From NCBI GenBank assembly GCA_041661795.1, contig JBAZTS010000002.1, forward strand, positions 36,263-100,262: a stretch of DNA of 64,000 nucleotides, given 5' to 3'. Of the stretch, positions 10,391 through 61,940 are shown piece by piece. The stretch comes from Minisyncoccota bacterium. GTDB taxonomy: Bacteria; Patescibacteriota; Minisyncoccia; UBA6257; JAGOQP01. Position 1 is the first letter of the stretch. Every line of letters starts with the position of its first letter. Made by a program: the position numbers and the translations under genes. The notes beneath the pieces were generated by a model. The model saw only the letters and a program-made list of their open reading frames with translations, searched no databases and had not been told where the DNA came from.

Positions 10391-10420
10391 AAAAACCCCT
10401 TTTGGGGTTTTTGTTTTTTT
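10391..10420 (+). terminator. rho-independent terminator
   Basis: aaaaaCCCCttttGGGGtttttgttttttt. Confidence 0.7.
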
Positions 10421-10421
10421 A

Positions 10422-10450
10422 CCCCCACACTAATGGAATTAGTGTGGGGG
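10422..10450. repeat. hairpin repeat CCCCCACACTAAT-n5-ATTAGTGTGGGGG (family copy a)
   Basis: Perfect 12-bp inverted repeat. Confidence 0.8.
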
Positions 10451-10469
10451 TTTATGGTAATATACTGGG

Positions 10470-10787
10470 ATGAAGATAATAGTAAAATCAACAGGTTTAG
10501 AGCTTTCTGAGGCGCTAAACGAATTTATAAGTATTAAGCTATCTTCTCTGTCTAAATTTATTGTAAAATTTGAGAAGAAATCAGAAGCTATTTTAAAAGT
10601 TGAAGTGGCTAGATCCACTAAGCATCGCCATAAAGGGGATGTCTATTACGTGGAGTTGTCATTAGCGCTTCCAAAAAATGATTTAAGAATAGAACAATAC
10701 GATGAAGATATAAGATCGGGAATTGATAAAGCCAAAAGAAAAATGGCTCTTGAAATAAAAAAGATTGATGACAAGCATTTTAGATAA
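10470..10787 (+). CDS. hpf: ribosome hibernation promoting factor (short RaiA/YfiA type)
   Basis: 105 aa; MKIIVKSTGLELSEALNEFISIKL… is typical of the S30AE family. Confidence 0.7.
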   Translation: MKIIVKSTGLELSEALNEFISIKLSSLSKFIVKFEKKSEAILKVEVARSTKHRHKGDVYYVELSLALPKNDLRIEQYDEDIRSGIDKAKRKMALEIKKIDDKHFR

Positions 10788-13387: not shown

Positions 13388-15280
13388 TTATTGTTCTATA
13401 CAGTAAAGTCTATTAGTCAAGTTGCATGCCTCAATACCAGTGTAAGCCCAGCCACCGATAGCAGTGTTGGTGTATCCATAAGCTCCGTATCCACCCGCAG
13501 AGTTAGTTGTCCAGTTTGAACAGTCACTTGCCCCCTTGTAAAGTCCGGTAAAATCAAAATCTGTCCATACATAATCATTAACAAGAGTTCCATTTTCATC
13601 ATACTCTACTTTATTCATTAGATAATTTGTGCCATCAAATCTTACCCACGGCATTACGTATGGAGAAGTTGTTGTTGCCAAGCTAGAATCGGCGACAACA
13701 TAACCACCCATATTAATTAAACGTATCCAGTTATATCCTATTGTTGTTATTGGTTCTACGGTTGTACTGTATTGTCCAATAATTGCCTCCCACGTTCCGC
13801 CTAAGCTAGCAGCGTTTGCTCGTGCCTGACACTTAGCATGAGCTCCAGAAACTCCACCAAGATTTCCGTCATATAGAGCGGATGTTACAAATACTCTTTT
13901 TGTGAGAGTTGTTGTTGCCGATCCAGAAGCAACAGCCGCGTCAACATAGGCCTTTGTAGTGGCATCGGAATCAGCTGTGGGAGCAGCTAAGTTGGTTAGT
14001 TTGTATGTCGGCGTTGCACCAGTAAGTTTTATATTACCTTTAACTTCAAGCGCTTCTGTTGGAAGAGTTGAAGAAGATAATCCTATCCCAACTTTTGAAT
14101 TAGTTAAGTCCAAAGTCAGTGTTGATGTATCGGATAAAACTTGATAACCGGCAATACAAGGATTTCCAAGACAGATGTCATCTGTAAGAAGAAATTGAAC
14201 ATTTTTTCTACCATAAAATATCATATCATTAAGGGAACTTACTGCCGAAGATGCTCTGCCAAACCACCCTACCGCATAACCTTCATCATCTTCATTGCCA
14301 AAAGAACTTTTTGCTCTACTGGATGAGAATCCATATTGTGGTTCCGATGATACTCCTTCTGCCCACCAATATCCAAAATTATAAGGAGCTCTTGCAGACA
14401 AAACTGATCCGGCCACATCCAGTTTCGCTTTATATGCTGCTGACGTTGATGTTCCTATAACAACTTTATCTCCACTATTACCAACGGTAAAAACAGAAGT
14501 GCTTGAAGCTTTTATTCCCCCTGCGGTTTCTAAACTATAAGACGGAGCTGTTGTGCCTATTCCCACATTTCCTTGCACAATAAGTCCGTTTGAAGGAGCT
14601 GTGCTAGCTCCGGCATATGAAGACCCGATAGCCGCGCCTCCTGCTACGTCCAATTTATTTATTAAAGTTGAAACCCCTATCCCAACGTTTCCGGAAAATG
14701 CAGCGTTCTTCCATCTGGTTGGATTTATTCCAACAGAATATGAGTTGTCCGTTCCGGGAAGCAAATCGGAATCAAATGTCGCTGCCGAAGCTCTGGAAAC
14801 AGCTGATCTCAAACTTCTTGTTACGTTATTTCCTCCAACGTCTTGAGCAGATGATAAAGCCAAATCAATTTGAACCACGTCTTTTCCGGGATATTGAGTT
14901 AACTTCTTAAATTCTAAAGAATCAACCACCACTTTTTCATTAGTAAGCGCTTGAGCTGAATTATTTCCTTCTCTTATGTAAATTTGTCCTCCAGAAAGAT
15001 AAATTGTGGATGTGGTCGTATCTTTCATTCTTAGAACTAAGGAATCAGTGCTGGCTCCCGCTCCTATTTCTATTACGCTGGACTCTTTAACTAATCTTTG
15101 AATGGTATTCATCACAAAATTCAATTGACCCGATAACTCATTTTCAGCAGATTGCTCGACTTGGGTTTTTGTTACCGTTGTCATTATGCCAGTAATAATT
15201 CCTGTAGATATTGCCAAAATACCCACATAAATAAGCACCTCGGTTAAAGTAAAACCTTTGTTTTGTTTGTAGATTCTCAT
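13388..15280 (-). CDS. type IV pilin-like protein (prepilin N-terminal methylation motif) with a large lectin-like C-terminal domain
   Basis: N-terminus MRIYKQNKG|FTLTEVLIYVGILAIS (class III signal: G-FTLxE plus hydrophobic helix); 630 aa; C-terminal Cys-containing region with a WIxL motif; the gene is GC-richer than its flanks. Confidence 0.65.
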   Translation of the reverse strand: MRIYKQNKGFTLTEVLIYVGILAISTGIITGIMTTVTKTQVEQSAENELSGQLNFVMNTIQRLVKESSVIEIGAGASTDSLVLRMKDTTTSTIYLSGGQIYIREGNNSAQALTNEKVVVDSLEFKKLTQYPGKDVVQIDLALSSAQDVGGNNVTRSLRSAVSRASAATFDSDLLPGTDNSYSVGINPTRWKNAAFSGNVGIGVSTLINKLDVAGGAAIGSSYAGASTAPSNGLIVQGNVGIGTTAPSYSLETAGGIKASSTSVFTVGNSGDKVVIGTSTSAAYKAKLDVAGSVLSARAPYNFGYWWAEGVSSEPQYGFSSSRAKSSFGNEDDEGYAVGWFGRASSAVSSLNDMIFYGRKNVQFLLTDDICLGNPCIAGYQVLSDTSTLTLDLTNSKVGIGLSSSTLPTEALEVKGNIKLTGATPTYKLTNLAAPTADSDATTKAYVDAAVASGSATTTLTKRVFVTSALYDGNLGGVSGAHAKCQARANAASLGGTWEAIIGQYSTTVEPITTIGYNWIRLINMGGYVVADSSLATTTSPYVMPWVRFDGTNYLMNKVEYDENGTLVNDYVWTDFDFTGLYKGASDCSNWTTNSAGGYGAYGYTNTAIGGWAYTGIEACNLTNRLYCIEQ

Positions 15281-15334
15281 ATGAGATTATTATATCACAA
15301 TGGTGATTTTTATTCACTAAGATTGTGGATAAAT

Positions 15335-15361
15335 CCCCACACTAATTCTATTAGTGTGGGG
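15335..15361. repeat. hairpin repeat CCCCACACTAAT-tct-ATTAGTGTGGGG (family copy b)
   Basis: Same stem sequence as copy a; between the lepB-like gene and the pilin-like gene. Confidence 0.8.
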
Positions 15362-15367
15362 ATAAAC

Positions 15368-15973
15368 TTACCAGACAACCTTGCCTATGATGTTTTCTTT
15401 GGGTATTAAACCAAATCTGGTGCTATCCAAACTTCCTTCCGGAATGTTTCCTAAAATCAAAAAAGTGTCTTTTGGAATAATGGGATAATCTTTGGTATAC
15501 AACTTGAGCATGGCAGATTTTTGAGTAGATAAAACATAAGGAATAGATTGCTGGTTTCTCAATACTTTTTCGTTAACTATTATTTGATATCCGCTGTTTA
15601 TTTTTTTTAAGTTCCAAGAATCTCCATCTATGGCTTTTACTGTTTTTATGAGCGGTTCAGGATTGCCTGCATATTTGTATATGACAATATCATCTCTTTT
15701 GACTGGATTACACTTATAATATCCTTCCAAAACTTTTATTTTAGTTCCCGACTCTATTAATCCGCTCATGGAAGAACCAACTACGATGTCTTCTTTTTCG
15801 TCGTACGCGCAAGAAGAATTATTGGCAGAAACTATTTGTTTATCAGGGTGTTGGTTAATCTGAATCAGCTGGTCCGTGTTGCTTGATATGTTGAAAATAA
15901 TAATCAACAAAAAAATAACCGAGACGAGAACAAATATTTTGAATGTTTTTTTAAAAATCTTTGAATTTATCAT
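15368..15973 (-). CDS. lepB: signal peptidase I (S26 family)
   Basis: VVGSSMSGLIESGTKI (SM box), RDDIVIYKY, …LGNIPEGSLDSTRFGLIPKENIIGKV (GDN…S.DSR.FG box E). Confidence 0.6.
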   Translation of the reverse strand: MINSKIFKKTFKIFVLVSVIFLLIIIFNISSNTDQLIQINQHPDKQIVSANNSSCAYDEKEDIVVGSSMSGLIESGTKIKVLEGYYKCNPVKRDDIVIYKYAGNPEPLIKTVKAIDGDSWNLKKINSGYQIIVNEKVLRNQQSIPYVLSTQKSAMLKLYTKDYPIIPKDTFLILGNIPEGSLDSTRFGLIPKENIIGKVVW

Positions 15974-18334: not shown

Positions 18335-18365
18335 TTTTTATTTGTGTCTTTTTTTAAATAAGCTT

Positions 18366-18462
18366 TAGGAAAGATTTTGAGGCCATGCGGAAGACGGCGG
18401 TCTGAGCTAGAGGGATTTTTCAGCAGAAAAATACCCGTGCCTAAAAATTTTTTCTAAAGCGG
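18366..18462 (+). repeat. ~100-nt MITE-like element, copy 1 (imperfect TIRs GAAAGATTTTGAGG / CCTAAAAATTTTTTC flanking a conserved 60-nt core)
   Basis: Core GGCCATGCGGAAGACGGCGGTCTGAGCTAGAGGGATTTTTCAGCAGAAAAATACCCGTGCC; its reverse complement recurs at 46836-46932. Confidence 0.7.
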
Positions 18463-18472
18463 ATTAGTATTA

Positions 18473-22071: not shown

Positions 22072-22418
22072 AAAGATAAGTGAGTGATTGCCCTGACATT
22101 TGTTGGGGAGGAAAGTCCGGACTCCCATCTCCGACGTAACGTCGGAGTAAACGTATTCGCTAACAGCGAACTATCGCAAGATAAGAGGTGCGAACAGAGA
22201 CGAGTCCTAATGGAAACATTAGGGGTGAAACGGTCCCGACGCCTATTTCGGGTTAGGGACTCCGACATCCGCAAGGATCGTCGGAGCTAAATCCTTGCGG
22301 GGTGCAAGACCGTATCCGCCCAGGGCGGGTGAGTCGCTTGAACCTGAGAGTAATTGAAGGTCCAGACAAATAATCACTATCCCGACGTAACGTCGGGACA
22401 CAGAATCCGGCTTATAGC
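22072..22418 (+). ncRNA. rnpB: RNase P RNA (bacterial type A)
   Basis: P4 consensus GGAGGAAAGUCCGGACUCC at 22109-22127; ACAGAAUCCGGCUUAUAG (ACAGARxxGGCUUA) near the 3' end; P1 pairing AGAUAAG/CUUAUCU; GC-rich relative to its surroundings. Confidence 0.8.
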
Positions 22419-22500
22419 TTATCTAAACATATCAAGAATCTCTCCTTAACGGGGGGATTTTTGATTGATTTATTAAGGGTTTTTTGATACTTTTAACAAG

Positions 22501-39278: not shown

Positions 39279-39315
<37 letters not shown>

Positions 39316-39324
39316 GCTATGAAA

Positions 39325-39366
39325 TAAAAAAAGCCCGCCGGTGTCTTCCGAGGAAGTCCTGGCGGG
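39325..39366 (-). terminator. intrinsic terminator of the minus-strand GC-rich transcript
   Basis: Minus-strand RNA …CCCGCCAGGACUUCC-UCGG-GGAAGACACCGGCGGG followed by UUUUUUU. Confidence 0.65.
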
Positions 39367-39922
39367 GTGGAACAGGTGGTGCGACCTTAGCTCACTCGGT
39401 GCTGTCGAGTTCGCTCGCCCGATATACTCTCCGGGTGATACGAGAGCTCGAATCTGCCGAGACGTGACGCGTGGTCACTTTTTGCTAAGGTTTTTTGGGG
39501 TGCTGCTCCTCTTCCTGTTCGGTACTTTCTAAGAACGGTTCCCACACCGTTCTCGCCGGCGAGCTTAGCTCGCGCAGGGTAGAGGCGCCTCCTAAAGGAG
39601 GCAAAACATGAGTACAAATTCGGAATTGGATTTTTGTGAGTTTCCGGACTCACTATCTCGTTTGGTGCACCTCCCGAGAAGTCCTTTTCCTTCCACTTAT
39701 TATTGGGCCAGTTTGAGATCAGCGGTGGACACTCAAACTGTTTGCGTGCTTTCACCGAGCTTGCCGGATTTACTCGGATCTTTGGTGAGATGGCGCAACC
39801 CCACAGTTTTGACCTCCCTCAGCTGCGCGCGCAACTGAGTTGTCAGCTCACCTAGTGACAGAGGCCCCCTTTTTGACCGTTTTTTCTTCTTGGTCCGGAA
39901 GGGTTTCCGTGCTACATTTTTA
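39335..39922 (-). ncRNA. unclassified GC-rich structured transcript (~590 nt) upstream of and co-directional with dnaX; candidate SRP RNA, tmRNA or other ncRNA
   Basis: Consensus promoter (TTGACA-N16-TATAAT at 39930-39957, minus strand) and intrinsic terminator; 55-60% GC; many hairpins (CCUCCuuuaGGAGG, GCGAGCuaaGCUCGC, GAGAACGGUgugggaACCGUUCUU); no convincing long ORF. Confidence 0.4.
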
Positions 39923-46817: not shown

Positions 46818-46835
46818 GGGTTTTATTATTTCGTT

Positions 46836-46932
46836 TCAGAAAAGGTTTTGGGGCACGGGTATTTTTCTGCTGAAAAATCCCTCAAGCTCAGCCCGTCGGC
46901 TTCCGCACGGTCCCAAAACCTTTTCTAAAACT
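46836..46932 (-). repeat. ~100-nt MITE-like element, copy 2 (TIRs AGAAAAGGTTTTGGG / CCCAAAACCTTTTCT)
   Basis: Core is about 90% identical to the reverse complement of 18381-18441; 15-bp perfect flanking inverted repeats. Confidence 0.7.
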
Positions 46933-49698: not shown

Positions 49699-49926
49699 AT
49701 GGCTAGAAGAAAACCGGCAAGATCGATAACCATAGATAGGATGACAAGGATGATTTGCGGAGTGCTGATTCCGTCAATTATCCTTCCTCGACTACAAGAG
49801 GCGGAAGACATCGCCCTTCGGACTCTGGGGGCTTTAGGAAAGTCCCAGAGTGAAGCTCGTCATCTTTTCTGGGTGGCTATTGAGACACTCGCCAAGAGTG
49901 AGCAGATTTCCAACGGCACGCAATAG
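49699..49926 (+). CDS. GC-rich small hypothetical protein (75 aa)
   Basis: AGGGGGA RBS about 5 nt upstream of the ATG; candidate promoter TTGACT-N17-TATTTT at 49649-49677; hairpin GGCGCGGAACttgtTCCGCGCC downstream; about 50% GC against a ~35% background. Confidence 0.35.
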   Translation: MARRKPARSITIDRMTRMICGVLIPSIILPRLQEAEDIALRTLGALGKSQSEARHLFWVAIETLAKSEQISNGTQ

Positions 49927-49975
49927 ACAGCTCTTTCCAACTATAGGCGCGGAACTTGTTCCGCGCCTTCTGCAT

Positions 49976-51133
<1,158 letters not shown>

Positions 51134-51178
51134 TTATAATAATCATATACCGAATACAGTATACCGTATACCGCAAAA

Positions 51179-52666
51179 ATGACTAAGTATATTAAATCTA
51201 AATTAAATAGTTGCTTTTCTTATCCCGATATACGGTCTACGGTTTACAGTTCCCGTTCCTTCACCCTTGTAGAACTCCTCGTCGTCATAGGTATCCTAGC
51301 AGTCCTTACTACAGCAGTCGTTATCATCCTCAATCCTGCTGATTATCTTGCTCAATCTCGTGACTCTAGAAGAATGAATGACCTCTCTCTCCTCAATAAC
51401 TCTCTCCAGAACTTAGAAGCCATAGACCCTACCATATCTTTTGGAACATCTCTTACCGTCTATATCTCCATCCCAGACGATGCTTCTTCTACCTGTGGAA
51501 CCTTAGGATTACCCAATCTTTCTTCAGGATATACATATAACTGTGTCTCTACAGCTAATCTCACCAAAACAGATGGTACAGGTTGGGTTCCTGTCAACTT
51601 TACTACTCAATCTATTGTTCAATTATCTGCTCTTCCTATAGATCCTACTAATACCCCTACAGATGGACTTTATTATACATATACTCCTGGAGGGAGTTGG
51701 CATCTAAGATCTATTCTTGAATCATCTAAATATCAATCCAAAGCTCTAAACGATGGAGGCACATCAGACAACGCCTTTGAAACAGGAACGAACATGGCTC
51801 TTGCTCCAGCAGTATTCCCCAACAACTGGATAAAGGTTCCCGGAAGCTCCACATACAATACCTCTGATTTTTGGGTTATGAAGTATGAGGCCAAGTATGA
51901 CAAGGATAATGATGGAAAAGGAGATGCAACATCATATTGTAGATACGGTGGTTATAATTCAATTTCTATTGGTTGTGTTACTGGTGGCAGTTTTATATCC
52001 TCAGCTTATGGTTTTCCTGTTGCTACCGCTTATTCTGCTTCTGACGCTAACAATGCCTGTTCTTCTACCGGTGCTCATCTTGTTACAAATAACGAATGGA
52101 TGACGATCGCCAGAAATGTAGAACAAGTTGATTCCAACTGGACAGGCGGTTCTGTTGGTTCCGGAAAATTATTTATTGGCAACTATGGTTATTGTTATGG
52201 AGTTAGTAATTGCTATACCTTTAGTGGCACGTTTCAAGATTATGGAACTAATAGAAACTCAAGAGCAAAGTTGACTCTTTCCAATAAGGAAGAAATATAT
52301 GACTTTTCTGGTAATATGGCCGAAAATGTAAAACTCGGATCTTCTTTTGCTATTACCGAAGCAAATCATCCGGATGCGATCAGTATAGGAGATTGGGCCA
52401 ATAATGATTTTTTATCTCTTACTAGTTATGGAGATTTTTCTTCTTATGATAATCTAGGACCATCTGATGACTCATGGACTAATGCCAGTCAAGGAGTTGG
52501 ATATATGTATCATTGCGATGGATGTTCTTCTGGTGGCGCCTCAACAATAATTAGAGGAGGATCAGTTGATTCTCAAGCCGCTGGAGCTCCTGGAATATAT
52601 ACGATTCGTCTGCGTTATATAGGTGGCGATTATAATGCTTATAGTGGTTTTCGCTGCGCTAAATAA
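51179..52666 (+). CDS. type IV pilin-like protein with a C-terminal FGE-sulfatase/C-type-lectin-like domain
   Basis: …RS|FTLVELLVVIGILAVLTTAVVII (prepilin-type N-terminal helix); C-terminal …NNEWMTIARN…DFSGNMAENV… resembles FGE-sulfatase-domain motifs; C-ending codon bias unlike its neighbours. Confidence 0.55.
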   Translation: MTKYIKSKLNSCFSYPDIRSTVYSSRSFTLVELLVVIGILAVLTTAVVIILNPADYLAQSRDSRRMNDLSLLNNSLQNLEAIDPTISFGTSLTVYISIPDDASSTCGTLGLPNLSSGYTYNCVSTANLTKTDGTGWVPVNFTTQSIVQLSALPIDPTNTPTDGLYYTYTPGGSWHLRSILESSKYQSKALNDGGTSDNAFETGTNMALAPAVFPNNWIKVPGSSTYNTSDFWVMKYEAKYDKDNDGKGDATSYCRYGGYNSISIGCVTGGSFISSAYGFPVATAYSASDANNACSSTGAHLVTNNEWMTIARNVEQVDSNWTGGSVGSGKLFIGNYGYCYGVSNCYTFSGTFQDYGTNRNSRAKLTLSNKEEIYDFSGNMAENVKLGSSFAITEANHPDAISIGDWANNDFLSLTSYGDFSSYDNLGPSDDSWTNASQGVGYMYHCDGCSSGGASTIIRGGSVDSQAAGAPGIYTIRLRYIGGDYNAYSGFRCAK

Positions 52667-52668
52667 TT

Positions 52669-54618
52669 TTATGAAGATGCTTTTTTAATTGCCTCCATTT
52701 CTTTTTTTATTTGAGTAGCTTTTTCAAACTGTAAATTTCTCTGTGCCATTTCCAGTTTTTGCCTTAATTCTTTCAAATAATCCCTCTTAAATTCACTGCT
52801 GATATTTTTGAACTCTTCGCTTTTCTCTTCTTTATTATCTAATAATGTATTTTTTATTTCTTTTATTATGGCCTGTGGCTTTTTATTGTGTTTGCGATTA
52901 TATTCCTGCTGAATTTTTCTTCTTCTGTCCATTTCGGATATTGCTCCTTTCATTGATTTAGTAGTTTTGTCGGCATACATAATCACATGGCTGTTTAAGT
53001 TTCTGGCAGATCTTCCGGCAATTTGAATGAAAGAAGTTTTATCTCTTAAAAATCCTTCTTTGTCGGCGTCTAAAATAGCTATTAATGAAACTTCAGGTAA
53101 ATCCAATCCCTCTCTTAATAAGTTTATCCCAACCAGAACATCAAACTTTCCGGTTCTCAAATCAAAAAGAATTTTTGGTCTTTCCAATGTATCAATTTCG
53201 GAATGTAAAAACTCAGCTTTTATTTTTTTATCCTTAAAATGTTGAACTAGGGCTTCTGACAAGCGCTTGGTAAGAACAGTTACTAAAACTCTTTCTTTCC
53301 TTTTTATTCTTTCTTCTATTTCTTTTATTAAGTCAGGGATTTGATTTTCCGTGGGGCGAATCTCAGTTTCCGGGTCCAAAAGATAAGTTGGTCTGACAAT
53401 CTGTTGGGCAACCAAAGATGATTTTTCCAATTCATATTCAGCTGGGGTAGCCGAAGCAAACAAACATTTATTTATTTTTGAATGAAACTCGTTAAATTTA
53501 AGAGGTCGATTATCTAAGGCCGATGGTATGCGAAATCCGTGTTCTATAAGAGTTTCTTTTCTGGCTTTGTCGCCGTGATACATCCCTCTTACCTGAGGAA
53601 GAGTCATGTGGGACTCGTCTATAATCATCAAAAAATCTTTAGGAAAATAATCAATCAAAGTGAATGGGGGACTGTCTGGTTTTCTTCCCTCAAAATAACG
53701 GGAATAATTTTCAATTCCTTTACACCAGCCAACTTCAGATATCAAAGCCATATCATAATTAGTCCTTCTCTTGAGACGCTCGGCTTCTATCATTTTTCCT
53801 CTTTCCTGAAGTTTTTTAACTTGTTCTTCCAAATCCAAACGTATATTGGATATGGCTACTTGTCTTACACTCTCTTCCGATGACCAGAATTTTGCCGGAA
53901 ATAAATTAATTTCTTTTATATCTTTACTTTTTCCAAACGGCGCTTCCATTTCCACTATTTTCTCAATTGATTCGTGGTTTATCTTAAATCTGTATAAAAT
54001 ATCTCCTCCCGGGGGCCAAACATCTATAAACTCGGCCCTCTGTCTAAAATTTCCTCTCCAAAAACCAAATTCGTTTCTCTCAAACTGTAAAGTTAGTAAT
54101 TTTTTTAGAAGTTCTCTTTTAGTTGTTTTTTGACCCACTTTTATTTTTAAAGAAAGATTTTTGTATGCCTCTGGAGAACCCAAATTATAAATACAGGAAA
54201 CAGAAGCCACGATTATGGTGTTTGGATTTTTTAAAACTGATTGGACGGCCGCGTGTCTTAGTTTGTCTATCTCTTCATTAATTTGAACTTCCTTTTCTAT
54301 ATAAGTATCGGATGTGGGTAAGTAGGCCTCTGGTTGGTAGTAGTCGTAGTAGGAAACAAAATAATGGACATTGTCTTTAGGAAATATCATTTTAAATTCT
54401 TCATAAAGCTGGGCGGCTAAAGTTTTGTTATGGGAAATAACTAAGGTGGGCTTGTTAAGTGCCTGAATGGTGTGGGCCATAGTAAACGTTTTACCGCTTC
54501 CGGTAACTCCCAAAAGTGTCTGGAATTTATTGTTTTTACGGAACCCAGAAACTATCTGTTTTATAGCTTTGGGTTGATCGCCAGCTGGCTTTAGTTTTTT
54601 TGATATATTAAATGGCAT
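52669..54618 (-). CDS. uvrB: excinuclease ABC subunit B
   Basis: …LLGVTGSGKTFTMA…, DESH, helicase motifs, and a C-terminal UVR coiled-coil (…LQFEKATQIKKEMEAIK). Confidence 0.95.
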   Translation of the reverse strand: MPFNISKKLKPAGDQPKAIKQIVSGFRKNNKFQTLLGVTGSGKTFTMAHTIQALNKPTLVISHNKTLAAQLYEEFKMIFPKDNVHYFVSYYDYYQPEAYLPTSDTYIEKEVQINEEIDKLRHAAVQSVLKNPNTIIVASVSCIYNLGSPEAYKNLSLKIKVGQKTTKRELLKKLLTLQFERNEFGFWRGNFRQRAEFIDVWPPGGDILYRFKINHESIEKIVEMEAPFGKSKDIKEINLFPAKFWSSEESVRQVAISNIRLDLEEQVKKLQERGKMIEAERLKRRTNYDMALISEVGWCKGIENYSRYFEGRKPDSPPFTLIDYFPKDFLMIIDESHMTLPQVRGMYHGDKARKETLIEHGFRIPSALDNRPLKFNEFHSKINKCLFASATPAEYELEKSSLVAQQIVRPTYLLDPETEIRPTENQIPDLIKEIEERIKRKERVLVTVLTKRLSEALVQHFKDKKIKAEFLHSEIDTLERPKILFDLRTGKFDVLVGINLLREGLDLPEVSLIAILDADKEGFLRDKTSFIQIAGRSARNLNSHVIMYADKTTKSMKGAISEMDRRRKIQQEYNRKHNKKPQAIIKEIKNTLLDNKEEKSEEFKNISSEFKRDYLKELRQKLEMAQRNLQFEKATQIKKEMEAIKKASS

Positions 54619-54871: not shown

Positions 54872-54962
54872 CAAAACAAGTTTCGAAACCGCTTCACTGC
54901 CGTGAACAACACTACAGAAAGAGCGGTCGGAGCACTGCTCTTTCACAGAAAGGGGAACTTCG

Positions 54963-55361
54963 ATGAGTGGGATCGCTTGGTTTTTCGAGGTGTTCGCTCT
55001 GCTGTTTTTCGTGGGGACTCTGGGCGTTGCTTTCATCGGACGCCGCATCCTCAAGGCGGAGCAGGAGTCGTCGGTTCTGATGTCTTTCCTCCAGATCTGC
55101 AGTGGAGCGCTCTTCATCTTCTACGTTTTCGGACTGGGTCAACTCATGGCTCTGTCTGGACTGGAAGGTGCAAGGGCGCCCCGGTGGCTGATTCCGGGCA
55201 CCTACATCACTCTCACCATCTTCAGCGCGTTGACTCGGCTGGCTCTTCCAAGGTGGGGCAGTGACAACAAAGCGATGCAACTCTGGAGTGTCGTCAGCGT
55301 CCTGACGTTCCTACTCGGCACGTTCTGCCTCGGGGCGTACTCGTCCAACTACTTCGAGTAG
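54963..55361 (+). CDS. GC-rich (~58% GC) 4-TM membrane protein of unknown function
   Basis: AAAGGGGAAC RBS before the ATG at 54963; four hydrophobic helices; terminator hairpin at 55386-55420; overlapping alternative-frame ORFs were rejected. Confidence 0.4.
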   Translation: MSGIAWFFEVFALLFFVGTLGVAFIGRRILKAEQESSVLMSFLQICSGALFIFYVFGLGQLMALSGLEGARAPRWLIPGTYITLTIFSALTRLALPRWGSDNKAMQLWSVVSVLTFLLGTFCLGAYSSNYFE

Positions 55362-55385
55362 GTCTCCTTCTTCAGCTCTTCAACT

Positions 55386-55420
55386 GGCGGCGTCTCTCAC
55401 GAGGCGCCGCACTGCTTTTT
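55386..55420 (+). terminator. intrinsic terminator (GGCGGCGucucucacgagGCGCCGC followed by a T-run)
   Basis: GC stem followed by ACTGCTTTTT. Confidence 0.55.
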
Positions 55421-55467: not shown

Positions 55468-56607
55468 TTAATCGGTATATGTCCGTGACCGACGTAGTCG
55501 GTGGTATCGTATAGCAAATCTGTGGGCTTCGTTTCTTAACGAAAGTAATGTATTTTTAACATCTTCGGGGATTTGGCTCAAGCTGATAGGGGATTTTGAA
55601 TAGGGACTGTAAATCAATCCTTTTGTTTGTGATCTTTTATATTTCTTGCCAACATCGTTAATTAACTTACCATTACAATTAGAACGATCGTTGTAATTGT
55701 AATGGTGTGGATTATTACCCACAGATTGCAATTTGCCCACGTTTAGTTTTGCTAGAGCTATCATCGGAATCTTAATTGTTTTGAGTTGTGAGATTTGTGA
55801 TTTTCCTCCGTCAATGATAATTAAATCCGGATATTTCCATTCTTTGTGGTTAAGGCGTCTTTCTATAATTTCTTTTATTGAAGCCGGGTCATTGGCTCCT
55901 TTTATCGTTTTTATTTTAAATTTTCTGTAAAGATTTTTATTAGGTTTATTTCCGATAAACGTTACCATTGAGCCAACTGACAAACTACCTTGGGTATTGG
56001 AAATGTCGTAGCACTCAATATGTGTTTTTTCTCCATTATATAAACGAAGAAAAGTTTTTAATCCATTAACCACCTGGATGTATTTTTTTACTTCGATATT
56101 ATGAGCGGAACATAACCCTAAGTGATAATACAAGCACGGCTTTTCCGGTTTATTTTTACATGTGCGATAGGGGAATATTCTTCTGATTATCAATAAGAGA
56201 TGCTTAATCTCTTTTGCGTCTACAAACGGGCCAACAAAATCGGCTTTAAATTTTTTTGTTTGGTGTGTTAAAAGCACTCTGGGGTACTTTTCGTCGGTAA
56301 AAGCTATATACAAAAAATCCTTGTCATCTTTAAGTTCAATGTTATATTTTGGCTGATACTGTCTAACTAATTTTCTTTCTAAAATCAAGGCGTCTTTTTC
56401 AGATGGGGTTTCTATAAAATCTAAGTCAGCTACTTGTTTGTAAAAATTAATAGAAGCATTCTCTTGTCTAGAAAAATGCGATTCTATTCTCTTTTTTATA
56501 TTAATAGCTTTTCCGATATACAAAATCTTCTCATTCTTATCTTTGAAAATATATACTCCCGGTTTCTTAGGAAGTGCTTTTATCTTATTCTTCAGGATTG
56601 TTTTCAC
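55468..56607 (-). CDS. uvrC: minimal UvrC-like endonuclease (GIY-YIG, Cys motif and C-terminal endonuclease domain; no UvrB-binding or HhH domains), with a 36-bp palindrome in-frame
   Basis: GVYIFKDKNEKILYIGKAINIKKRIESHF (GIY-YIG); YRTCKNKPEKPCLYYHLGLC; IECYDISNTQG…DLIIIDGGKSQ…NEAHRFAIRYHR matches the UvrC catalytic D/D/H triad region; 379 aa. Confidence 0.7.
   Translation of the reverse strand: MKTILKNKIKALPKKPGVYIFKDKNEKILYIGKAINIKKRIESHFSRQENASINFYKQVADLDFIETPSEKDALILERKLVRQYQPKYNIELKDDKDFLYIAFTDEKYPRVLLTHQTKKFKADFVGPFVDAKEIKHLLLIIRRIFPYRTCKNKPEKPCLYYHLGLCSAHNIEVKKYIQVVNGLKTFLRLYNGEKTHIECYDISNTQGSLSVGSMVTFIGNKPNKNLYRKFKIKTIKGANDPASIKEIIERRLNHKEWKYPDLIIIDGGKSQISQLKTIKIPMIALAKLNVGKLQSVGNNPHHYNYNDRSNCNGKLINDVGKKYKRSQTKGLIYSPYSKSPISLSQIPEDVKNTLLSLRNEAHRFAIRYHRLRRSRTYTD
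55670..55705. repeat. 36-bp palindrome CCATTACAATTAGAACGATCGTTgTAATTGTAATGG (copy 1, in-frame inside the uvrC-like CDS)
   Basis: Near-perfect palindrome; translated as …HHYNYNDRSNCN… within the 379-aa ORF. Confidence 0.85.
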
Positions 56608-56645
56608 TGTTTTTTTATTTTTATCCTTATCTTAATCTTAATCTA

Positions 56646-56681
56646 CCATTACATTTAGAACGATCGTTCTAAATGTAATGG
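56646..56681. repeat. 36-bp perfect palindrome CCATTACATTTAGAACGATCGTTCTAAATGTAATGG (copy 2, intergenic)
   Basis: Between the uvrC-like start and the PaaX-like stop. Confidence 0.85.
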
Positions 56682-56684
56682 TGG

Positions 56685-57245
56685 CTAGATTTTCTTTATA
56701 GTCCCCATTTTTCCTATTTCCAATATCTCCACGTATTCGTTTATTCTCATTTTTTCTAAATCTTCCACAAACTTTTTAGGAATTTTTATTTTTCCTATCC
56801 AGACACTTTTTTGCAACATTTCAAATCCAATATTCTTTACAGCTGATCTTAACCAAGCCCTCTTCCTTTTAAATTTTTCCGGAACATCAAAAGCTATCAA
56901 AATAACATTGTTTCCGGCTTCTTTCTTATAATCTAAAGCTGGAGATTGATTATTGGATACCCGGTTAATAAGTTTTTTGGCTTTTTTAGTAATCTTGATA
57001 ATCAACCCCTCTTTTTGTTCTATGAGTCCGTCTTTCTTAAGACGATAAATCATTACCCTATATCTGTTTCTTATTTTTTCTTTCTCTGTTTTGATAGTCT
57101 CATTTTTAGTGCCGATTCTATTTAAATTGTCTCTTAATATAGACGTTGAGCCCCAAGAGAATAAAAACGCTTCAAAAGCATTAGAGTATGTTTGTCTATC
57201 TACATTATTTAGAAAACTTATTGTTTCTCTATTTCTTGCCCTCAT
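56685..57245 (-). CDS. PaaX-like regulator: N-terminal winged helix plus a C-terminal Cas2/VapD-like domain
   Basis: …RNRYRVMIYRLKKDGLIEQKEGLIIKITKKAKKLI (wHTH) followed by VILIAFDVPEKFKRKRAWLRSAVKNIGFEMLQKSVWIG (PaaX C-terminal-type fold). Confidence 0.45.
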   Translation of the reverse strand: MRARNRETISFLNNVDRQTYSNAFEAFLFSWGSTSILRDNLNRIGTKNETIKTEKEKIRNRYRVMIYRLKKDGLIEQKEGLIIKITKKAKKLINRVSNNQSPALDYKKEAGNNVILIAFDVPEKFKRKRAWLRSAVKNIGFEMLQKSVWIGKIKIPKKFVEDLEKMRINEYVEILEIGKMGTIKKI

Positions 57246-57270
57246 AACAATATTATATCATCATTTATTA

Positions 57271-57306
57271 CCATTACAATTAGAACGATCGTTCTAATTG
57301 TAATGG
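57271..57306. repeat. 36-bp perfect palindrome CCATTACAATTAGAACGATCGTTCTAATTGTAATGG (copy 3, upstream of the PaaX-like gene)
   Basis: Lies 26 nt upstream of the PaaX-like start codon. Confidence 0.85.
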
Positions 57307-57417
57307 AGGGAGTATATATGATTAAGAATATTAAATAATTATCATAGAGTTATTATGATTATAGATTGATTTTATCGTTTTAATTAAAGAGTGCCTTATA
57401 AATTAGCACGGACCGCT

Positions 57418-57570
57418 TTATGGGCGGTCCGGGATGGGTGGAGCGGGTGCGGGCTTGACCACTTTGGCCACGAGGCCGATTAATATGGTCAGCATTGAAA
57501 CGGGTACTACGGTGGCGATGATGACGGACGATTCCACCACCACCAGAGACCACTTGACTAGGTAGTGCAT
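57418..57570 (-). CDS. GC-rich 50-aa hydrophobic peptide (MHYLVKWSLVVVESSVIIATVVPVSMLTILIGLVAKVVKPAPAPPIPDRP)
   Basis: AGGAGG 4 nt upstream of the ATG; single TM; terminator hairpin GGACCGC/GCGGUCC overlaps the stop codon. Confidence 0.3.
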   Translation of the reverse strand: MHYLVKWSLVVVESSVIIATVVPVSMLTILIGLVAKVVKPAPAPPIPDRP

Positions 57571-57689
57571 TCAACCTCCTTTCTTCTGAGAATCTTGGTG
57601 ATCCACAGATAGAGGTTGTATCCTGTTTGAATAACGTGGGCCATCTTTTGGCCCAGTATTGTCGTCCGATGAAACGTTGTTGTAGACAT
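57558..57689 (-). CDS. GC-rich 43-aa peptide (MSTTTFHRTTILGQKMAHVIQTGYNLYLWITKILRRKEVECTT)
   Basis: AAAGGAGAC RBS 5 nt before the ATG; the downstream part of the listed 57558..57860 ORF, whose upstream part is the wrong frame of the neighbouring gene. Confidence 0.25.
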   Translation of the reverse strand: MSTTTFHRTTILGQKMAHVIQTGYNLYLWITKILRRKEVECTT

Positions 57690-57703
57690 CACGTCTCCTT
57701 TGG

Positions 57704-57949
57704 TTAGGCGATGGCGCCGGGGTATTCTTCGGAGATCTTCTCGATCTCTTTTTCCTCTTTCTTCACTTGGTCTGTGAGCACAAGGAAGAAAAAGATGATG
57801 GCCATGATTCCCACAAGAGTGGCAAAGGCCCATGAAAAGCTCTTGGGGAGTTGGAACCATCGTGATAAGTGATATCCTCCAAAAGTGAGAATTACCACGG
57901 CCACGGTCGCTCCAACTTTACGGAGCAAGTTGAGTAGTCCCGGGAACAT
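57704..57949 (-). CDS. GC-rich 81-aa 2-TM protein
   Basis: AAGGAGG RBS 6 nt before the ATG; two hydrophobic helices. Confidence 0.3.
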   Translation of the reverse strand: MFPGLLNLLRKVGATVAVVILTFGGYHLSRWFQLPKSFSWAFATLVGIMAIIFFFLVLTDQVKKEEKEIEKISEEYPGAIA

Positions 57950-58193
57950 TACTCTCCTCCTTTTTGGTGTACATCTTTCGAAGTTTCTCCTGTAGAGCGT
58001 TGAGCCCCGTGAAGACCAGGGCTCCGGTCAGAAACCCGATACAAGCCAACGATCCTCGGATCTCCAATCCTGGAGGCAGTGGAACTCGGTCTGCCCATAG
58101 GACCGTGAAGAAACAGGAAGCAGCAGTTGAAAGGCCAACGAAAGTGAACCAAACCACTCTTGCGATCAACTCCAGAACTTTTCCGATTTTCAT
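57918..58193 (-). CDS. GC-rich 91-aa 2-TM protein
   Basis: GAGGAGG RBS 7 nt before the ATG; first gene of a 4-ORF GC-rich micro-operon. Confidence 0.3.
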   Translation of the reverse strand: MKIGKVLELIARVVWFTFVGLSTAASCFFTVLWADRVPLPPGLEIRGSLACIGFLTGALVFTGLNALQEKLRKMYTKKEESNVPGTTQLAP

Positions 58194-61193: not shown

Positions 61194-61411
61194 AGATAAT
61201 AATCATCGTAAAACCAAATAAAAAAGAAAATAAGGTTGTGAAAATAGGAGAGAACATTTTTGAAATTTATACGAATCAACCGGCTAAAGAAAATAAAGCC
61301 AATTTGGATATTATTCAACAAATGTCCAAGTATTTTAAAGTATCAAAATCAAAGGTTTCTATATCTTCCGGATTAAAGTCAAAGAAGAAAATTTTGGAAA
61401 TAAATATATAA
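61190..61411 (+). CDS. DUF167 (YggU-like) family protein
   Basis: 73 aa; …KANLDIIQQMSKYFKVSKSKVSISSGLKSKKKILEI matches the DUF167 C-terminal consensus (AN…L…VxKsxVxIxxGxxSRxK). Confidence 0.65.
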   Translation: MKIIIIVKPNKKENKVVKIGENIFEIYTNQPAKENKANLDIIQQMSKYFKVSKSKVSISSGLKSKKKILEINI

Positions 61412-61443
61412 AAAAAGGGGGCTCCCGGTGTTGCTGGGAGCCC
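61410..61443 (-). terminator. intrinsic terminator of the minus-strand GC-rich transcript (GGGCUCCCagcaacaccGGGAGCCC followed by UUUUUUU)
   Basis: Seen on the reverse complement; it also caps the convergent DUF167 gene. Confidence 0.6.
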
Positions 61444-61940
61444 AAAGTGCGGTAAGGAGGTCAATGTACGATGCGGTGCCTGCCGTGCGTCGCTTCGCTC
61501 GTTCGGGTCTTGGTGGTTCAGATCAGGGCCAGTCGTGCCCGAAAACTTAACTTTCTGGCCCATTGCTTCTCGGCACGCATGGTTTCTCCTTGCATGGATT
61601 TTTGGTCCACGCAGCTCTGCCCTCAGCGCTTGACGGTGGCCTCGTCGTTGGTGCGGTGGTTGTTCTGACGCTGTTGCATGGGATTTCTCCTCGCGTGAAC
61701 GTCGTCGGTTGTTGGTGCTAGCTATGGCTCAAGTCAAGCTTTCTTTTCGGTGAGCTTGACGAGCAGTGCTAGCGCCTGTTCTGGGTTTCGTTTTTTATCG
61801 GTATAACCTTCACAAGGTTATACCAGGGTTTCCTTCCTGATTGGCGGTCAAGAAGGTTGTTTAATCATCCAGCATTGTCCTAACTAACGGAACGGCGGTT
61901 CGACGTCCACGTGCATCGCTTTCCTCCTTATGTAGTTTAC
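61443..61940 (-). ncRNA. GC-rich (~57% GC) transcript with only mini-ORFs (10, 18 and 20 codons, each with a strong SD); function unknown
   Basis: Promoter TTGACT-N17-TATCCT (minus strand, 61948-61976); first mini-ORF UAAGGAGGAAAGCG-AUG (MHVDVEPPFR); ends at the terminator at 61410-61443. Confidence 0.35.

What the first reader, a model, noticed from the sequence alone, without database searches (positions are those of the whole stretch)
51179..52666. Second pilin-like protein whose C-terminus resembles an FGE-sulfatase (SUMF1) / C-type-lectin-fold domain, with atypical codon usage
The N-terminal hydrophobic segment (S|FTLVELLVVIGILAVLTTAVVII) is prepilin-like but is preceded by an unusually long, non-canonical leader (no Gly at -1). 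The C-terminal part contains …AHLVTNNEWMTIARN… and …DFSGNMAENV…, echoing the FGE-sulfatase-domain motifs (TxxEWEYAAR and GNVWEW). The gene uses C-ending codons heavily (CTC, ATC, ACC, TCC…), unlike the A/T-ending bias of the core genes, which suggests horizontal origin.
Basis: partly seen in the sequence, partly recalled or inferred. Interest (0 to 1): 0.5.

Follow-up and report, generated by a model that had tools for sequence, protein, structure and literature searches.

The report
Pilin carrying a lectin-fold binding head
This gene encodes a pilus subunit fused to a lectin-fold binding domain, and its relatives in other ultra-small (CPR) bacteria have that domain hyper-mutated by a retroelement, although this copy appears fixed and is not a sulfatase-maturing enzyme or a recent foreign import.

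Summary
The ORF 51179-52666 (+, 495 aa) is real. It is a two-module type IV pilin.

- **N-terminus:** a class III signal peptide (Pfam N_methyl passes its threshold), with a 27-aa leader that ends in Ser instead of Gly, followed by a ~150-aa pilin head.
- **Not an enzyme:** the FGE catalytic cysteines are absent.
- **Family link to DGRs:** 35 of 58 assessable homolog loci have an adjacent Avd, template repeat and/or reverse transcriptase (24 have all three). Population variants differ almost only in the last ~40 residues.
- **This copy looks fixed:** no DGR lies within ~84 kb, and its variable-region equivalent is degenerate.
- **Codon usage:** it is truly atypical (z=10.6). The signal is avoidance of G-ending codons, which is a family-wide trait.
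- **Not a recent import:** the pilin module is ~94% identical at DNA level to LamG-type pilin paralogs in the same genome, so recent horizontal origin is not supported.

The parts
51113..51140 (+). Promoter-like site TTTAAA-16 nt-TATAAT, about 39 nt upstream of the ATG, in the 51-nt divergent gap between tgt and the pilin gene
   Evidence: 10 of 12 consensus matches. The number of such sites in the region is not above the shuffled expectation, so this is only indicative.
51179..52666 (+). Complete ORF, 495 aa plus the TAA stop: a bimodular type IV pilin (NCBI MFA6136081.1 / MFA6352684.1, annotated there as 'type II secretion system protein')
   Evidence: JGI called only 430 aa, starting from Met66 (P0001), which would remove the signal peptide.
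51179..51259 (+). Leader peptide, aa 1-27 (MTKYIKSKLNSCFSYPDIRSTVYSSRS), ending in Ser at -1. It is unrelated to the paralogs' leaders of 7-12 aa.
   Evidence: The AlphaFold pLDDT is below 50 here.
51260..51343 (+). [quoted passage not shown]
   Evidence: Pfam N_methyl 24.7 bits. Model helix H30-51. The family profile hits geopilin and PilA structures.
51260..51703 (+). Pilin module block, aa 28-175. It is shared at about 94% nucleotide and 96-97% amino-acid identity with the LamG-type paralog P0057 of the same genome. It begins exactly at the Phe+1 codon and ends at GGSW. It includes the invariant Cys106 and Cys122.
51704..51793 (+). End of the pilin head and linker, aa 176-205. Identity to the LamG paralogs drops to 40-53% here, marking the recombination junction region.
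51794..52663 (+). C-type-lectin-fold domain of the FGE-sulfatase subtype, aa 206-495. Motifs: WIKVPG...DFWVMKYEAKY, HLVTNNEWMTIARN, SGNMAENV, RGGS...GFRCAK.
52553..52663 (+). Variable-region equivalent, aa 459-495 (RGGSVDSQAAGAPGIYTIRLRYIGGDYNAYSGFRCAK). It is homologous to the DGR-mutated stretch of relatives but degenerate: 37 aa instead of 35, a PG insertion, and Trp replaced by Val.
   Evidence: It scores 23.9 bits against a scaffold HMM, versus a median of 63.5 for DGR-linked members.

Best explanation
**What the gene encodes.** It is a modular (bimodular) type IV pilin.
- The prepilin is inserted in the membrane through its class III signal peptide.
- The 27-aa leader is presumably removed after Ser27 by a prepilin peptidase that accepts Ser at -1.
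- The ~150-aa pilin module is presumably polymerised into a type IV pilus. Because it carries a bulky extra domain, it is most likely a low-abundance or tip subunit.
- The ~290-aa C-terminal domain is a non-enzymatic C-type-lectin fold of the FGE-sulfatase subtype. It would serve as the ligand-binding head, plausibly for attachment of this Paceibacterota (CPR) cell to a host or surface.

**What the family does.** The gene belongs to a large patescibacterial family in which the last ~35 residues of this domain are the variable region of an adjacent diversity-generating retroelement. The cassette order is target gene, Avd, template repeat, reverse transcriptase. These are pilins whose binding site is reprogrammed by adenine-directed mutagenesis.

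**What this copy is.**
- It has no such retroelement nearby.
- Its variable-region equivalent has drifted, including an indel.
- It is therefore most likely a fixed-specificity descendant.
- Its pilin module is one of at least four near-identical copies in the genome that carry different adhesin heads (LamG or lectin fold), so module exchange or gene conversion between paralogs built the present gene.

**Shown versus inferred.**
- Shown: the architecture, the fold, the family link to DGRs, absence of a local DGR, and the intragenomic mosaic.
- Inferred: cleavage at Ser-1, incorporation into pili, tip location, adhesin function, and loss (as opposed to remote location) of the DGR.
For: **Architecture**
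- N_methyl passes its Pfam threshold.
- The family profile hits type IV pilin structures at the N-terminus and SUMF2, TaqVP and FGE at the C-terminus.
- The AlphaFold model has pLDDT 85.4 and pTM 0.85.

**Not an FGE enzyme**
- There is no Cys between Arg459 and Cys493, where FGE carries its catalytic Cys pair just after the GGS motif (sequence; motif position from my own knowledge of human FGE C336/C341).

**Family is DGR-linked**
- In L003 the homolog is followed by GIY-YIG, bAvd and RVT_1 genes and then pilM, pilB, pilT and pilC.
- It has a 121-nt TR/VR pair in which 10 of 11 mismatches fall on template adenines.
- Of 84 family loci, 35 show RT, Avd or TR evidence (24 have all three), 23 have no DGR despite at least 3 kb downstream, and 26 cannot be assessed.
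- Within clusters of at least 90% identity, variation is confined to the last 45 aa. In the P0068 cluster 21 of 45 columns vary, 10 of them with four or more states, against 8 of 435 elsewhere with none. The residue sets fit AAY mutagenesis.

**This copy**
- No RT or Avd by tblastn, no YxDD ORF, and A-tolerant template scans at the level of shuffled controls, across the window and 10 kb beyond each end.
- The variable-region scaffold score is second-lowest of 69.
- Its 90% cluster holds only the identical sequence.

**Mosaic**
-.

**Modular-pilin precedent**
- PMC8179133; its Dataset S1 lists the architecture IPR012902-IPR005532 for 8 proteins.
Against: - The single sequence fails the PF03781 threshold, so the domain assignment rests on homologs and a predicted structure.
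- Ser at -1 contradicts the stated rule that leaders end in Gly or Ala (PMC10191384), so processing is unproven.
- I did not identify any pilus assembly or prepilin peptidase gene in the window. Only 10 of its proteins were scanned.
- No ligand is known.
- Absence of a DGR is shown for only about 84 kb of a genome whose other contigs (for example 230 kb and 91 kb) I could not scan. Remote DGR targets exist in other systems.
- The lack of variants in the protein cluster rests on few, possibly non-independent, assemblies.
- The cause of the avoidance of G-ending codons is unexplained.
Confidence: 0.75

Rival explanations
1. The gene is an active DGR target in this genome. The reverse transcriptase, Avd and template repeat would lie on another contig and diversify residues 459-495 in trans.
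For: - The family is DGR-linked in 35 of 58 assessable loci.
- The fold is closest to a DGR variable protein.
- Parts of the scaffold survive (RGG, AGA, GFRCA).
- DGRs with remote targets are known (my own knowledge).
Against: - No template repeat, RT or Avd lies within about 84 kb.
- In nearly all DGR-linked loci Avd begins within about 600 nt downstream of the gene and the RT within about 2.3 kb. L106 (cassette upstream), L084 and L058 are arranged differently.
- The region has a 2-aa insertion and the second-lowest scaffold score of 69.
- The gene ends 2 nt from the convergent uvrB stop, leaving no intergenic room for the usual 3' elements.
- Only one sequence variant is on record.
Confidence: 0.1
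2. The gene was recently acquired by horizontal transfer, as the first reader proposed from its codon usage.
For: - Its synonymous codon pattern is the most deviant of the window (z = 10.6).
- Its C3/G3 asymmetry runs opposite to other + strand genes.
- DGR cassettes are mobile in other phyla (bioRxiv 10.1101/2024.11.15.621889).
Against: - GC3 is normal.
- The same depletion of G-ending codons marks family genes in 13 of 20 loci, across host GC3 from 0.15 to 0.82, and also the LamG paralog.
- The N-terminal third is about 94% identical in DNA to paralogs of the same genome.
- The flanking genes tgt and uvrB are ordinary core genes.
- An ancient acquisition of the lectin module is not excluded.
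Confidence: 0.1
3. The C-terminal domain is an enzyme of the SUMF1/EgtB/PvdO family, as NCBI names some homologs, for example an extracellular oxidase or formylglycine-generating enzyme.
For: - NCBI names P0022 and P0113 'SUMF1/EgtB/PvdO family nonheme iron enzyme'.
- FGEs are the top Foldseek hits.
Against: - The catalytic Cys pair is absent.
- The stretch equivalent to the FGE active-site loop is the hypervariable region in relatives, which is incompatible with a conserved active site.
- The best structural neighbours are a DGR variable protein and the non-catalytic SUMF2.
- There is no DinB-like iron-binding domain as in EgtB/OvoA. Pfam finds only N_methyl.
Confidence: 0.03
4. It is a type II secretion pseudopilin, as the NCBI product name suggests, and not a pilus subunit.
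For: - Weak NCBIfam similarities to GspH and GspG are confined to the N-terminal helix.
- The NCBI and JGI names say so.
Against: - All those scores are far below their cut-offs (for example 18 vs 80 bits) and cover only the generic N-terminal helix.
- In L003 the homolog lies beside pilM, pilB, pilT and pilC, including a PilT-type retraction ATPase.
- CPR bacteria lack an outer membrane for a T2SS to cross (my own knowledge).
Confidence: 0.02

Closest known systems
TaqVP, the Thermus aquaticus DGR variable protein (PDB 5VF4), and other CLec-fold variable proteins (TvpA 2Y3C, Mtd 1YU0)
   Same: - TaqVP's C-terminal variable region (residues 345-380, RGGDWGNGGVAGLAALYL...) aligns with the family's RGGxWxxGxxAGxFxLxL stretch.
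- Many homologs of the window gene are true DGR variable proteins.
   Different: - The window protein carries an N-terminal type IV pilin module.
- It has no cognate template repeat, Avd or RT within about 84 kb.
- Its variable-region equivalent is degenerate.
- Sequence identity to TaqVP is only 18%.
Modular type IV pilins such as Streptococcus sanguinis PilB (vWA module) and PilC (lectin/LamG module), and the InterPro architecture IPR012902-IPR005532
   Same: - The design is the same: class III signal peptide, a small pilin module, then a grafted functional module presumed to be displayed by the pilus (PMC8179133, PMC9934059).
- The exact pilin + sulfatase-modifying-factor-domain architecture is listed for 8 proteins in Dataset S1 of PMC8179133.
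- Paralogs in the same genome carry LamG modules like PilC.
   Different: - The extra module is a DGR-type C-type-lectin fold. That paper did not discuss this architecture or link it to DGRs.
- The leader ends in Ser, not Gly or Ala.
- The host is a CPR bacterium.
- Nothing here has been tested experimentally.
DGR-diversified Type V pilus tip adhesins of Bacteroides (BfrT, BthT, BunT; bioRxiv 10.1101/2024.11.15.621889)
   Same: The concept is the same at family level: a pilus subunit whose C-terminal CLec-fold head is diversified by an adjacent DGR.
   Different: - It is a different pilus system: Type V, with lipoprotein-type processing and strand exchange, as opposed to type IV, with a prepilin peptidase and an alpha-helical core.
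- The phylum is different and the N-terminal modules are unrelated.
- The window copy itself lacks the DGR.
SUMF2 / pFGE (PDB 1Y4J), the non-catalytic paralogue of formylglycine-generating enzyme
   Same: - Like the window protein, it has the FGE fold without the catalytic cysteine pair (my own knowledge for SUMF2).
   Different: - It is a eukaryotic ER-lumen protein with no pilin module.
- It has no hypervariable C-terminal stretch.

Membership tests
Type IV pilin (class III signal peptide, PF07963/IPR012902) | N-terminal methylation/cleavage motif recognised by the curated model | tested here: met
   PF07963 scores 24.7 bits against a cut-off of 21.2, residues 25-47. TIGR02532 scores 14.7 against 16.3, just below its cut-off.
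Type IV pilin (class III signal peptide, PF07963/IPR012902) | Leader peptide ends in Gly or Ala at -1 ('invariably', PMC10191384) | tested here: not met
   The residue at -1 is Ser27. Ser is also at -1 in 66 of 108 related proteins, so this is a lineage trait and not an error. Cleavage is untested.
Type IV pilin (class III signal peptide, PF07963/IPR012902) | Glu at +5 and a hydrophobic alpha1-N helix of about 20-25 residues | tested here: met
   The sequence is F-T-L-V-E. The model has helices H30-51 and H53-82.
Type IV pilin (class III signal peptide, PF07963/IPR012902) | Globular pilin head packed on the alpha1 helix | tested here: met
   [not shown]
Type IV pilin (class III signal peptide, PF07963/IPR012902) | Processing by a prepilin peptidase and assembly by PilB/PilC-type machinery in the same organism | not tested
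   Only 10 window proteins were scanned and none is pilus machinery. In L003 a homolog lies next to pilM, pilB, pilT and pilC.
FGE-sulfatase domain superfamily (PF03781; C-type-lectin fold) | Single-sequence match to PF03781 at the gathering threshold | tested here: not met
   10.5 bits, E = 0.48, cut-off 23.3, residues 285-382.
FGE-sulfatase domain superfamily (PF03781; C-type-lectin fold) | Homology shown through family members and profiles | tested here: met
   78 of 83 full-length homologs (36-51% identical) hit PF03781, best E = 1.2e-16. The family profile hits SUMF2 at 2.9e-6 and FGEs at 2-3e-3.
FGE-sulfatase domain superfamily (PF03781; C-type-lectin fold) | FGE-type C-type-lectin fold | tested here: met
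   [not shown]
Formylglycine-generating enzyme (catalytic FGE/SUMF1) | Pair of catalytic, copper-binding cysteines in the loop just after the GGS motif | tested here: not met
   The sequence RGGSVDSQAAGAPGIYTIRLRYIGGDYNAYSGFRC has no Cys before the structural GFRC. The position of the FGE cysteines is from my own knowledge; no direct residue alignment to an FGE was obtained.
DGR variable protein (target of a diversity-generating retroelement) | C-terminal CLec-fold domain with the variable region at its end | tested here: met
   Residues 459-495 align with the variable regions of homologs and of TaqVP.
DGR variable protein (target of a diversity-generating retroelement) | Cognate template repeat differing from the variable region at adenines only | tested here: not met
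   The best A-tolerant matches in the window and in L114, L117 and L118 equal those of shuffled controls. The positive control L003 gives 121 nt with 10 of 11 mismatches at adenines. The rest of the genome was not searched.
DGR variable protein (target of a diversity-generating retroelement) | DGR reverse transcriptase and Avd in the vicinity | tested here: not met
   tblastn with the L003 RT and Avd finds nothing in the window. There is no YxDD ORF. No RVT or Avd Pfam hits appear in the extended flanks.
DGR variable protein (target of a diversity-generating retroelement) | Population-level hypervariation restricted to the variable region | tested here: inconclusive
   The target's 90% cluster holds only the identical sequence plus a truncated call. 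DGR-linked homolog clusters show 10-15 hypervariable columns. However, few assemblies contain this organism.
Modular (bimodular) type IV pilin | A complete pilin module followed by an independently folding module unrelated to pilus biology | tested here: met
   The model has two domains. The same pilin module is joined to LamG, TIGR02145-type or fibrinogen-C modules in other proteins.

The most novel reading that the evidence does not exclude
The window gene may be one cassette of an adhesin-swapping system in CPR bacteria.
- A single pilin 'handle' is kept near-identical in at least four paralogs of one genome. The identity block starts exactly at the prepilin cleavage site and ends at the last strand of the pilin head.
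- This handle would act as the recombination substrate that moves different binding heads (LamG or lectin fold) onto type IV pili.
- The lectin-fold heads originate from DGR-hypermutated genes. A useful specificity can be 'frozen' by losing the retroelement.
- These pilins use a Ser-1 leader, which would imply a prepilin peptidase specificity outside the accepted Gly/Ala rule.
- At family level this would identify type IV pili as the display platform for many CPR DGR variable proteins. Published surveys describe those proteins as lacking recognisable domains (PMC8144416).
Probability: 0.3. Interest if true: 0.75.

Novelty: new variant of a known kind. Interest (0 to 1): 0.55.

Why it matters
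CPR/Patescibacteria are obligate episymbionts. How they recognise hosts is largely unknown. They are also among the organisms richest in DGRs, yet a large survey states that their DGR targets typically show no recognisable transmembrane or other domain (PMC8144416).

The family this gene belongs to gives a concrete answer for many of those targets: the hypervariable lectin-fold head sits on a type IV pilin, often next to a pilus operon. This makes two things testable:
- Pilus-mediated, retroelement-tuned host attachment.
- Whether prepilin peptidases can cleave after Ser.

For the window gene itself the value is more modest. It corrects the database names ('type II secretion system protein' for this gene, 'SUMF1/EgtB/PvdO nonheme iron enzyme' for some homologs) to a probable fixed-specificity pilus adhesin. 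It also shows that atypical codon usage here is a family trait and not a sign of import.

Tried and rejected
1. **DGR inside the window: rejected.** The generic repeat search, an adenine-tolerant template scan, blastn with word size 7 and a YxDD motif search, and tblastn with a family RT and Avd were all negative. The same holds 10 kb beyond each window end.
2. **Alternative start giving a Gly-1 leader: rejected.** There is no in-frame start codon between 51179 and the cleavage site, and the -1 residue is fixed as Ser whatever the start.
3. **RNA hairpin spanning the start codon (51159-51173 pairing with 51233-51250).** It is present in the MFE and centroid structures, but the z-score is -0.96, so it is not significant.
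4. **Genome-contig scan with the full-length alignment.** It was swamped by the generic pilin motif and gave only one full-length relative. I replaced it with a C-domain-only alignment for the metagenome scan.
5. **Mean codon log-likelihood.** It did not discriminate the gene (z = -0.23). The G statistic did.
6. **Synteny test of insertion.** It was not possible because the next-closest Tgt is only 73% identical.
7. **Rfam on the nearby GC-rich patches.** No match even at E <= 1.
8. **Paul et al. 2017 (the CPR DGR survey).** I could not retrieve it, so an earlier mention of pilin-type targets there cannot be excluded. In the searchable library no paper holds both 'diversity-generating retroelements' and 'type IV pilin'. 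One 2024 survey lists a 'GspG-type pilin' domain among scarce VR-holding domains (PMC11661182).
Full report
**1. The observation**

- It lies between tgt (49976-51127, minus strand; Pfam TGT 1.9e-123) and uvrB (52669-54618, minus strand).
- It is 51 nt from the tgt start and 2 nt from the uvrB stop.
- A TTTAAA-16-TATAAT promoter-like site lies at 51113-51140. Such sites are not more frequent here than in shuffled sequence.

The N-terminal motif is real.
- Pfam N_methyl scores 24.7 bits against a cut-off of 21.2.
- Glu is at +5, and the model has a long N-terminal helix.

The leader is 27 aa and ends in Ser.
- There is no in-frame ATG/GTG/TTG between the first ATG and the cleavage site, and an in-frame stop lies just upstream. 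No alternative start gives Gly at -1.
- NCBI and ENA gene calls use the same 495-aa ORF. JGI called only 430 aa, from Met66.

**2. Is the C-terminus an FGE-sulfatase / lectin-fold domain?**

Three independent lines nevertheless support the assignment.
- *Homologs.* A protein search found 375 relatives. About 95 full-length ones (36-51% identical) mostly carry precomputed PF07963 + PF03781 hits. When 83 aligned members were scanned individually, 78 hit PF03781 (best 1.2e-16) and 74 hit N_methyl.
- *Profile against solved structures.* The family profile hits type IV pilins with its N-terminus (geopilin 1.4e-8, PilA 4.5e-7). Its C-terminus hits SUMF2 (7.7e-6; 2.9e-6 with the C-domain profile), TaqVP and FGEs.

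The target scores poorly by itself because its motifs have diverged. The family's AGNVWEHV is SGNMAENV here.

The domain is not a formylglycine-generating enzyme. The loop after the GGS motif, where FGE carries its two catalytic cysteines (my own knowledge), has no cysteine in the target. In relatives this same stretch is hypervariable.

**3. What the family is**

The C-termini of homologs show a fixed scaffold with scattered variable positions (RGGxWxxGxxAGxFxLxLxW...VGFRCAR). This is the look of a DGR variable region.
- *Worked example.* In L003 (NCBI GCA_030693235.1) the 45%-identical homolog is followed by GIY-YIG, bAvd and RVT_1 genes, then pilM, pilB, pilT and pilC. A 121-nt repeat pair links the gene's 3' end to the Avd-RT spacer, and 10 of 11 mismatches lie at template adenines.
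- *Survey.* I fetched 80 more loci with a C-domain-only profile and surveyed 84 loci in all. 35 have RT, Avd or a template repeat, and 24 have all three. The best 50-nt TR/VR windows have almost no non-adenine mismatch (none in most loci, one in L077 and L081) and 1-7 adenine mismatches. 23 loci have no DGR despite at least 3 kb downstream. 26 cannot be assessed.
- *Natural populations.* Clusters of at least 90%-identical proteins differ almost only in the last 45 residues. P0068 cluster: 21 of 45 columns vary, 10 with four or more states, against 8 of 435 elsewhere with none. P0007 cluster: 20 of 45 (10) against 57 of 437 (0). P0011 cluster: 33 of 45 (15) against 64 of 440 (0). The residue sets (D, G, H, N, S, T, Y...) are those expected from AAY codons.

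The family therefore consists of type IV pilins whose lectin-fold head is a DGR variable protein.

**4. This copy**

The window has no RT, no Avd and no template repeat. The identical Tgt lies on a 156-kb ENA contig of the same organism, and the 10 kb beyond each window end is also negative. That makes about 84 kb without a DGR. In nearly all DGR-linked loci, by contrast, the cassette starts within a few hundred bases downstream of the gene; L106, L084 and L058 are arranged differently.

A scaffold HMM trained on 25 DGR-linked variable regions gives these scores:
- DGR-linked members: median 63.5 bits.
- DGR-free members: median 48.8 bits.
- The target: 23.9 bits, second-lowest of 69.

The target's stretch is 37 residues instead of the canonical 35, with a PG insertion and Trp replaced by Val. 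Only one sequence of this protein is on record across NCBI, JGI and ENA.

The most economical reading is a fixed-specificity descendant of a DGR-diversified pilin. A remote DGR on an unseen contig is not excluded.

**5. Codon usage and origin**

The gene is the most deviant of 62 window genes in synonymous usage (G = 138, z = 10.6; the next gene has z = 3.5).
- GC3 is normal (0.27).
- The signal is avoidance of G-ending codons. G at four-fold sites is 0.039, against 0.164 +/- 0.048 for other + strand genes.
- There are excesses of CTC, ATC, GTC, TCT, GGT and CCT.
- The ribosomal protein genes rplM and rpsI do not show this pattern.

The trait is not specific to this genome. In 13 of 20 loci with enough neighbours, the family gene has the lowest G4 of all ORFs in its locus, and it is second-lowest in 3 more. 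Host GC3 in these loci ranges from 0.15 to 0.82. The LamG-type paralog shares the trait. I cannot explain its cause.

The gene is also an intragenomic mosaic.
- Residues 28-175 are 96-97% identical to the LamG pilin P0057, while residues 206-495 are unrelated to it (17%).
- The best full-length homolog is only 51% and 43% identical in those two parts.
- In DNA the shared block (about 440 nt, about 94% identity) starts at the Phe+1 codon and ends at GGSW. Leaders, upstream DNA and downstream DNA are unrelated.
- P0057, P0065 and the target carry accessions from the same two NCBI MAGs. P0057 and the target also lie on contigs of the same ENA assembly. P0106 shares its longest-contig length (230,710 bp) with P0057 and P0065, which suggests the same contig.

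Recent horizontal acquisition is therefore not supported. Module exchange or gene conversion among paralogs is.

**6. Comparison with what is known**

- *Modular pilins.* They are an established concept (*S. sanguinis* PilB and PilC; PMC8179133, PMC9934059). The architecture IPR012902-IPR005532 is listed for 8 proteins in that paper's dataset but not discussed.
- *DGR variable proteins.* Proteins with FGE-type lectin folds are known (TaqVP, TvpA).
- *DGR-diversified pilus adhesins.* These are described for Bacteroides Type V pili.
- *Pilin-DGR link in CPR.* I found no paper joining DGRs and type IV pilins. Roux et al. state that CPR targets typically lack recognisable domains. A 2024 survey lists a GspG-type pilin domain among scarce cases. 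Paul et al. 2017 could not be read.
- *Ser at -1.* It occurs in 61% of this superfamily. This conflicts with the review statement that leaders invariably end in Gly or Ala.

**7. Verdict**

- The structural interpretation is right, but for reasons beyond the proposed test.
- The horizontal-transfer inference is not supported.
- The gene is a new variant of known kinds: a modular type IV pilin whose head is a DGR-type lectin fold, here without its retroelement.
- Interest is moderate for the gene itself and higher for the family-level link.

Noticed in passing
window 54963-55361 (+), within the GC-rich patch 54881-55420: A 132-aa ORF with four hydrophobic segments has GC 0.57 and GC3 0.74, in a genome with GC3 around 0.30. 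It is followed by a strong GC-rich hairpin plus a U-run. The + strand folds with z = -3.66 and the - strand with z = -0.28. There is no Rfam match. It is a much better candidate for foreign DNA than the pilin gene.
   Followed up: partly
window 39301-39920, 49721-49980, 57361-58180, 61401-61940: These GC-rich blocks (0.49-0.52) in a 36% GC window have no convincing long ORF. They show no mutual similarity among the three compared (61401-61940 was not in that comparison). None reaches an Rfam gathering score, and 49721-49980 and 57361-58180 also have no Rfam match at E <= 1. Only RNase P RNA (22072-22430) and two tRNAs were recognised in the whole window.
   Followed up: partly
window 55662-55707, 56638-56683, 57263-57308: There are three copies of a ~38-46-nt near-perfect palindrome (ACCATTACAATTAGAACGATCGTTCTAATTGTAATGGT). 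One lies inside the uvrC ORF (55468-56607), where it encodes ...HHYNYNDRSNCNGK.... The other two flank a PaaX_M/Cas2-like ORF (56685-57245).
   Followed up: no
window 10418-10455 and 15329-15366: A pair of 38-nt palindromic elements (CCCCACACTAAT...ATTAGTGTGGGG), 92% complementary, brackets the block holding a ribosome-hibernation-factor gene (10470-10787), secA, the other pilin gene (13388-15280) and, just beyond, a signal peptidase S26 gene (15368-15973).
   Followed up: no
window 18361-18469 and 46824-46932: A 109-nt inverted repeat, 83% complementary, with arms 28 kb apart.
   Followed up: no
window 13388-15280 (-): The 'first' pilin-like gene of the window (630 aa) has a canonical KG|FTLTE site (Gly at -1), an N_methyl hit and a C-terminal DUF1554 domain. 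The genome therefore encodes both Gly-1 and Ser-1 prepilins, and several kinds of modular pilin.
   Followed up: partly
proteins P0002-P0120 (relatives of the window gene): Ser occupies the -1 position of the prepilin cleavage site in 66 of 108 proteins of this superfamily (Gly 27, Ala 13). A 2023 review states that leaders invariably end in Gly or Ala.
   Followed up: partly
loci L061-L073, L082, L087, L104, L105 (digester metagenomes, GC 0.28-0.33): In these homolog loci TGA stands in frame at 4-9 conserved Trp positions of the family gene (6-9 in most), and TGG is rare. Stop-free coverage rises from 0.36-0.63 under code 11 to 0.74-0.93 if TGA is sense, in the nine of these loci tested. UGA is therefore read as Trp there. 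No tRNA with a UCA anticodon lies in the flanks. This agrees with a May 2026 preprint reporting the first UGA-to-Trp Patescibacteriota, in class Minisyncoccia. The window itself uses the standard code.
   Followed up: partly
L034, L084 (TAG) and L076 (TGA), within the variable region of the homolog gene: Three DGR-linked homologs carry a premature stop exactly at the conserved Trp codon inside the variable region, which truncates the protein (for example P0002 ends ...LLLD). These could be DGR-generated 'off' variants or assembled minority variants.
   Followed up: no
L115 and L116 (Logan contigs carrying the identical tgt): Both short-read contigs end about 100 nt into the pilin gene. This is as expected if the near-identical pilin module of the paralogs breaks assemblies.
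   Followed up: no
L003 11480-11891: In this DGR cassette a small GIY-YIG gene sits between the variable-protein gene and Avd. A 47-nt direct repeat (11772-11818 / 11845-11891, 81%) precedes Avd.
   Followed up: no
window 51179-52666, and family genes in L001, L003, L034-L036, L054, L070, L074, L076, L089, L092, L100: Family-wide depletion of G-ending codons at four-fold sites, independent of host GC content and not shared by ribosomal protein genes. I have no explanation for its cause.
   Followed up: partly
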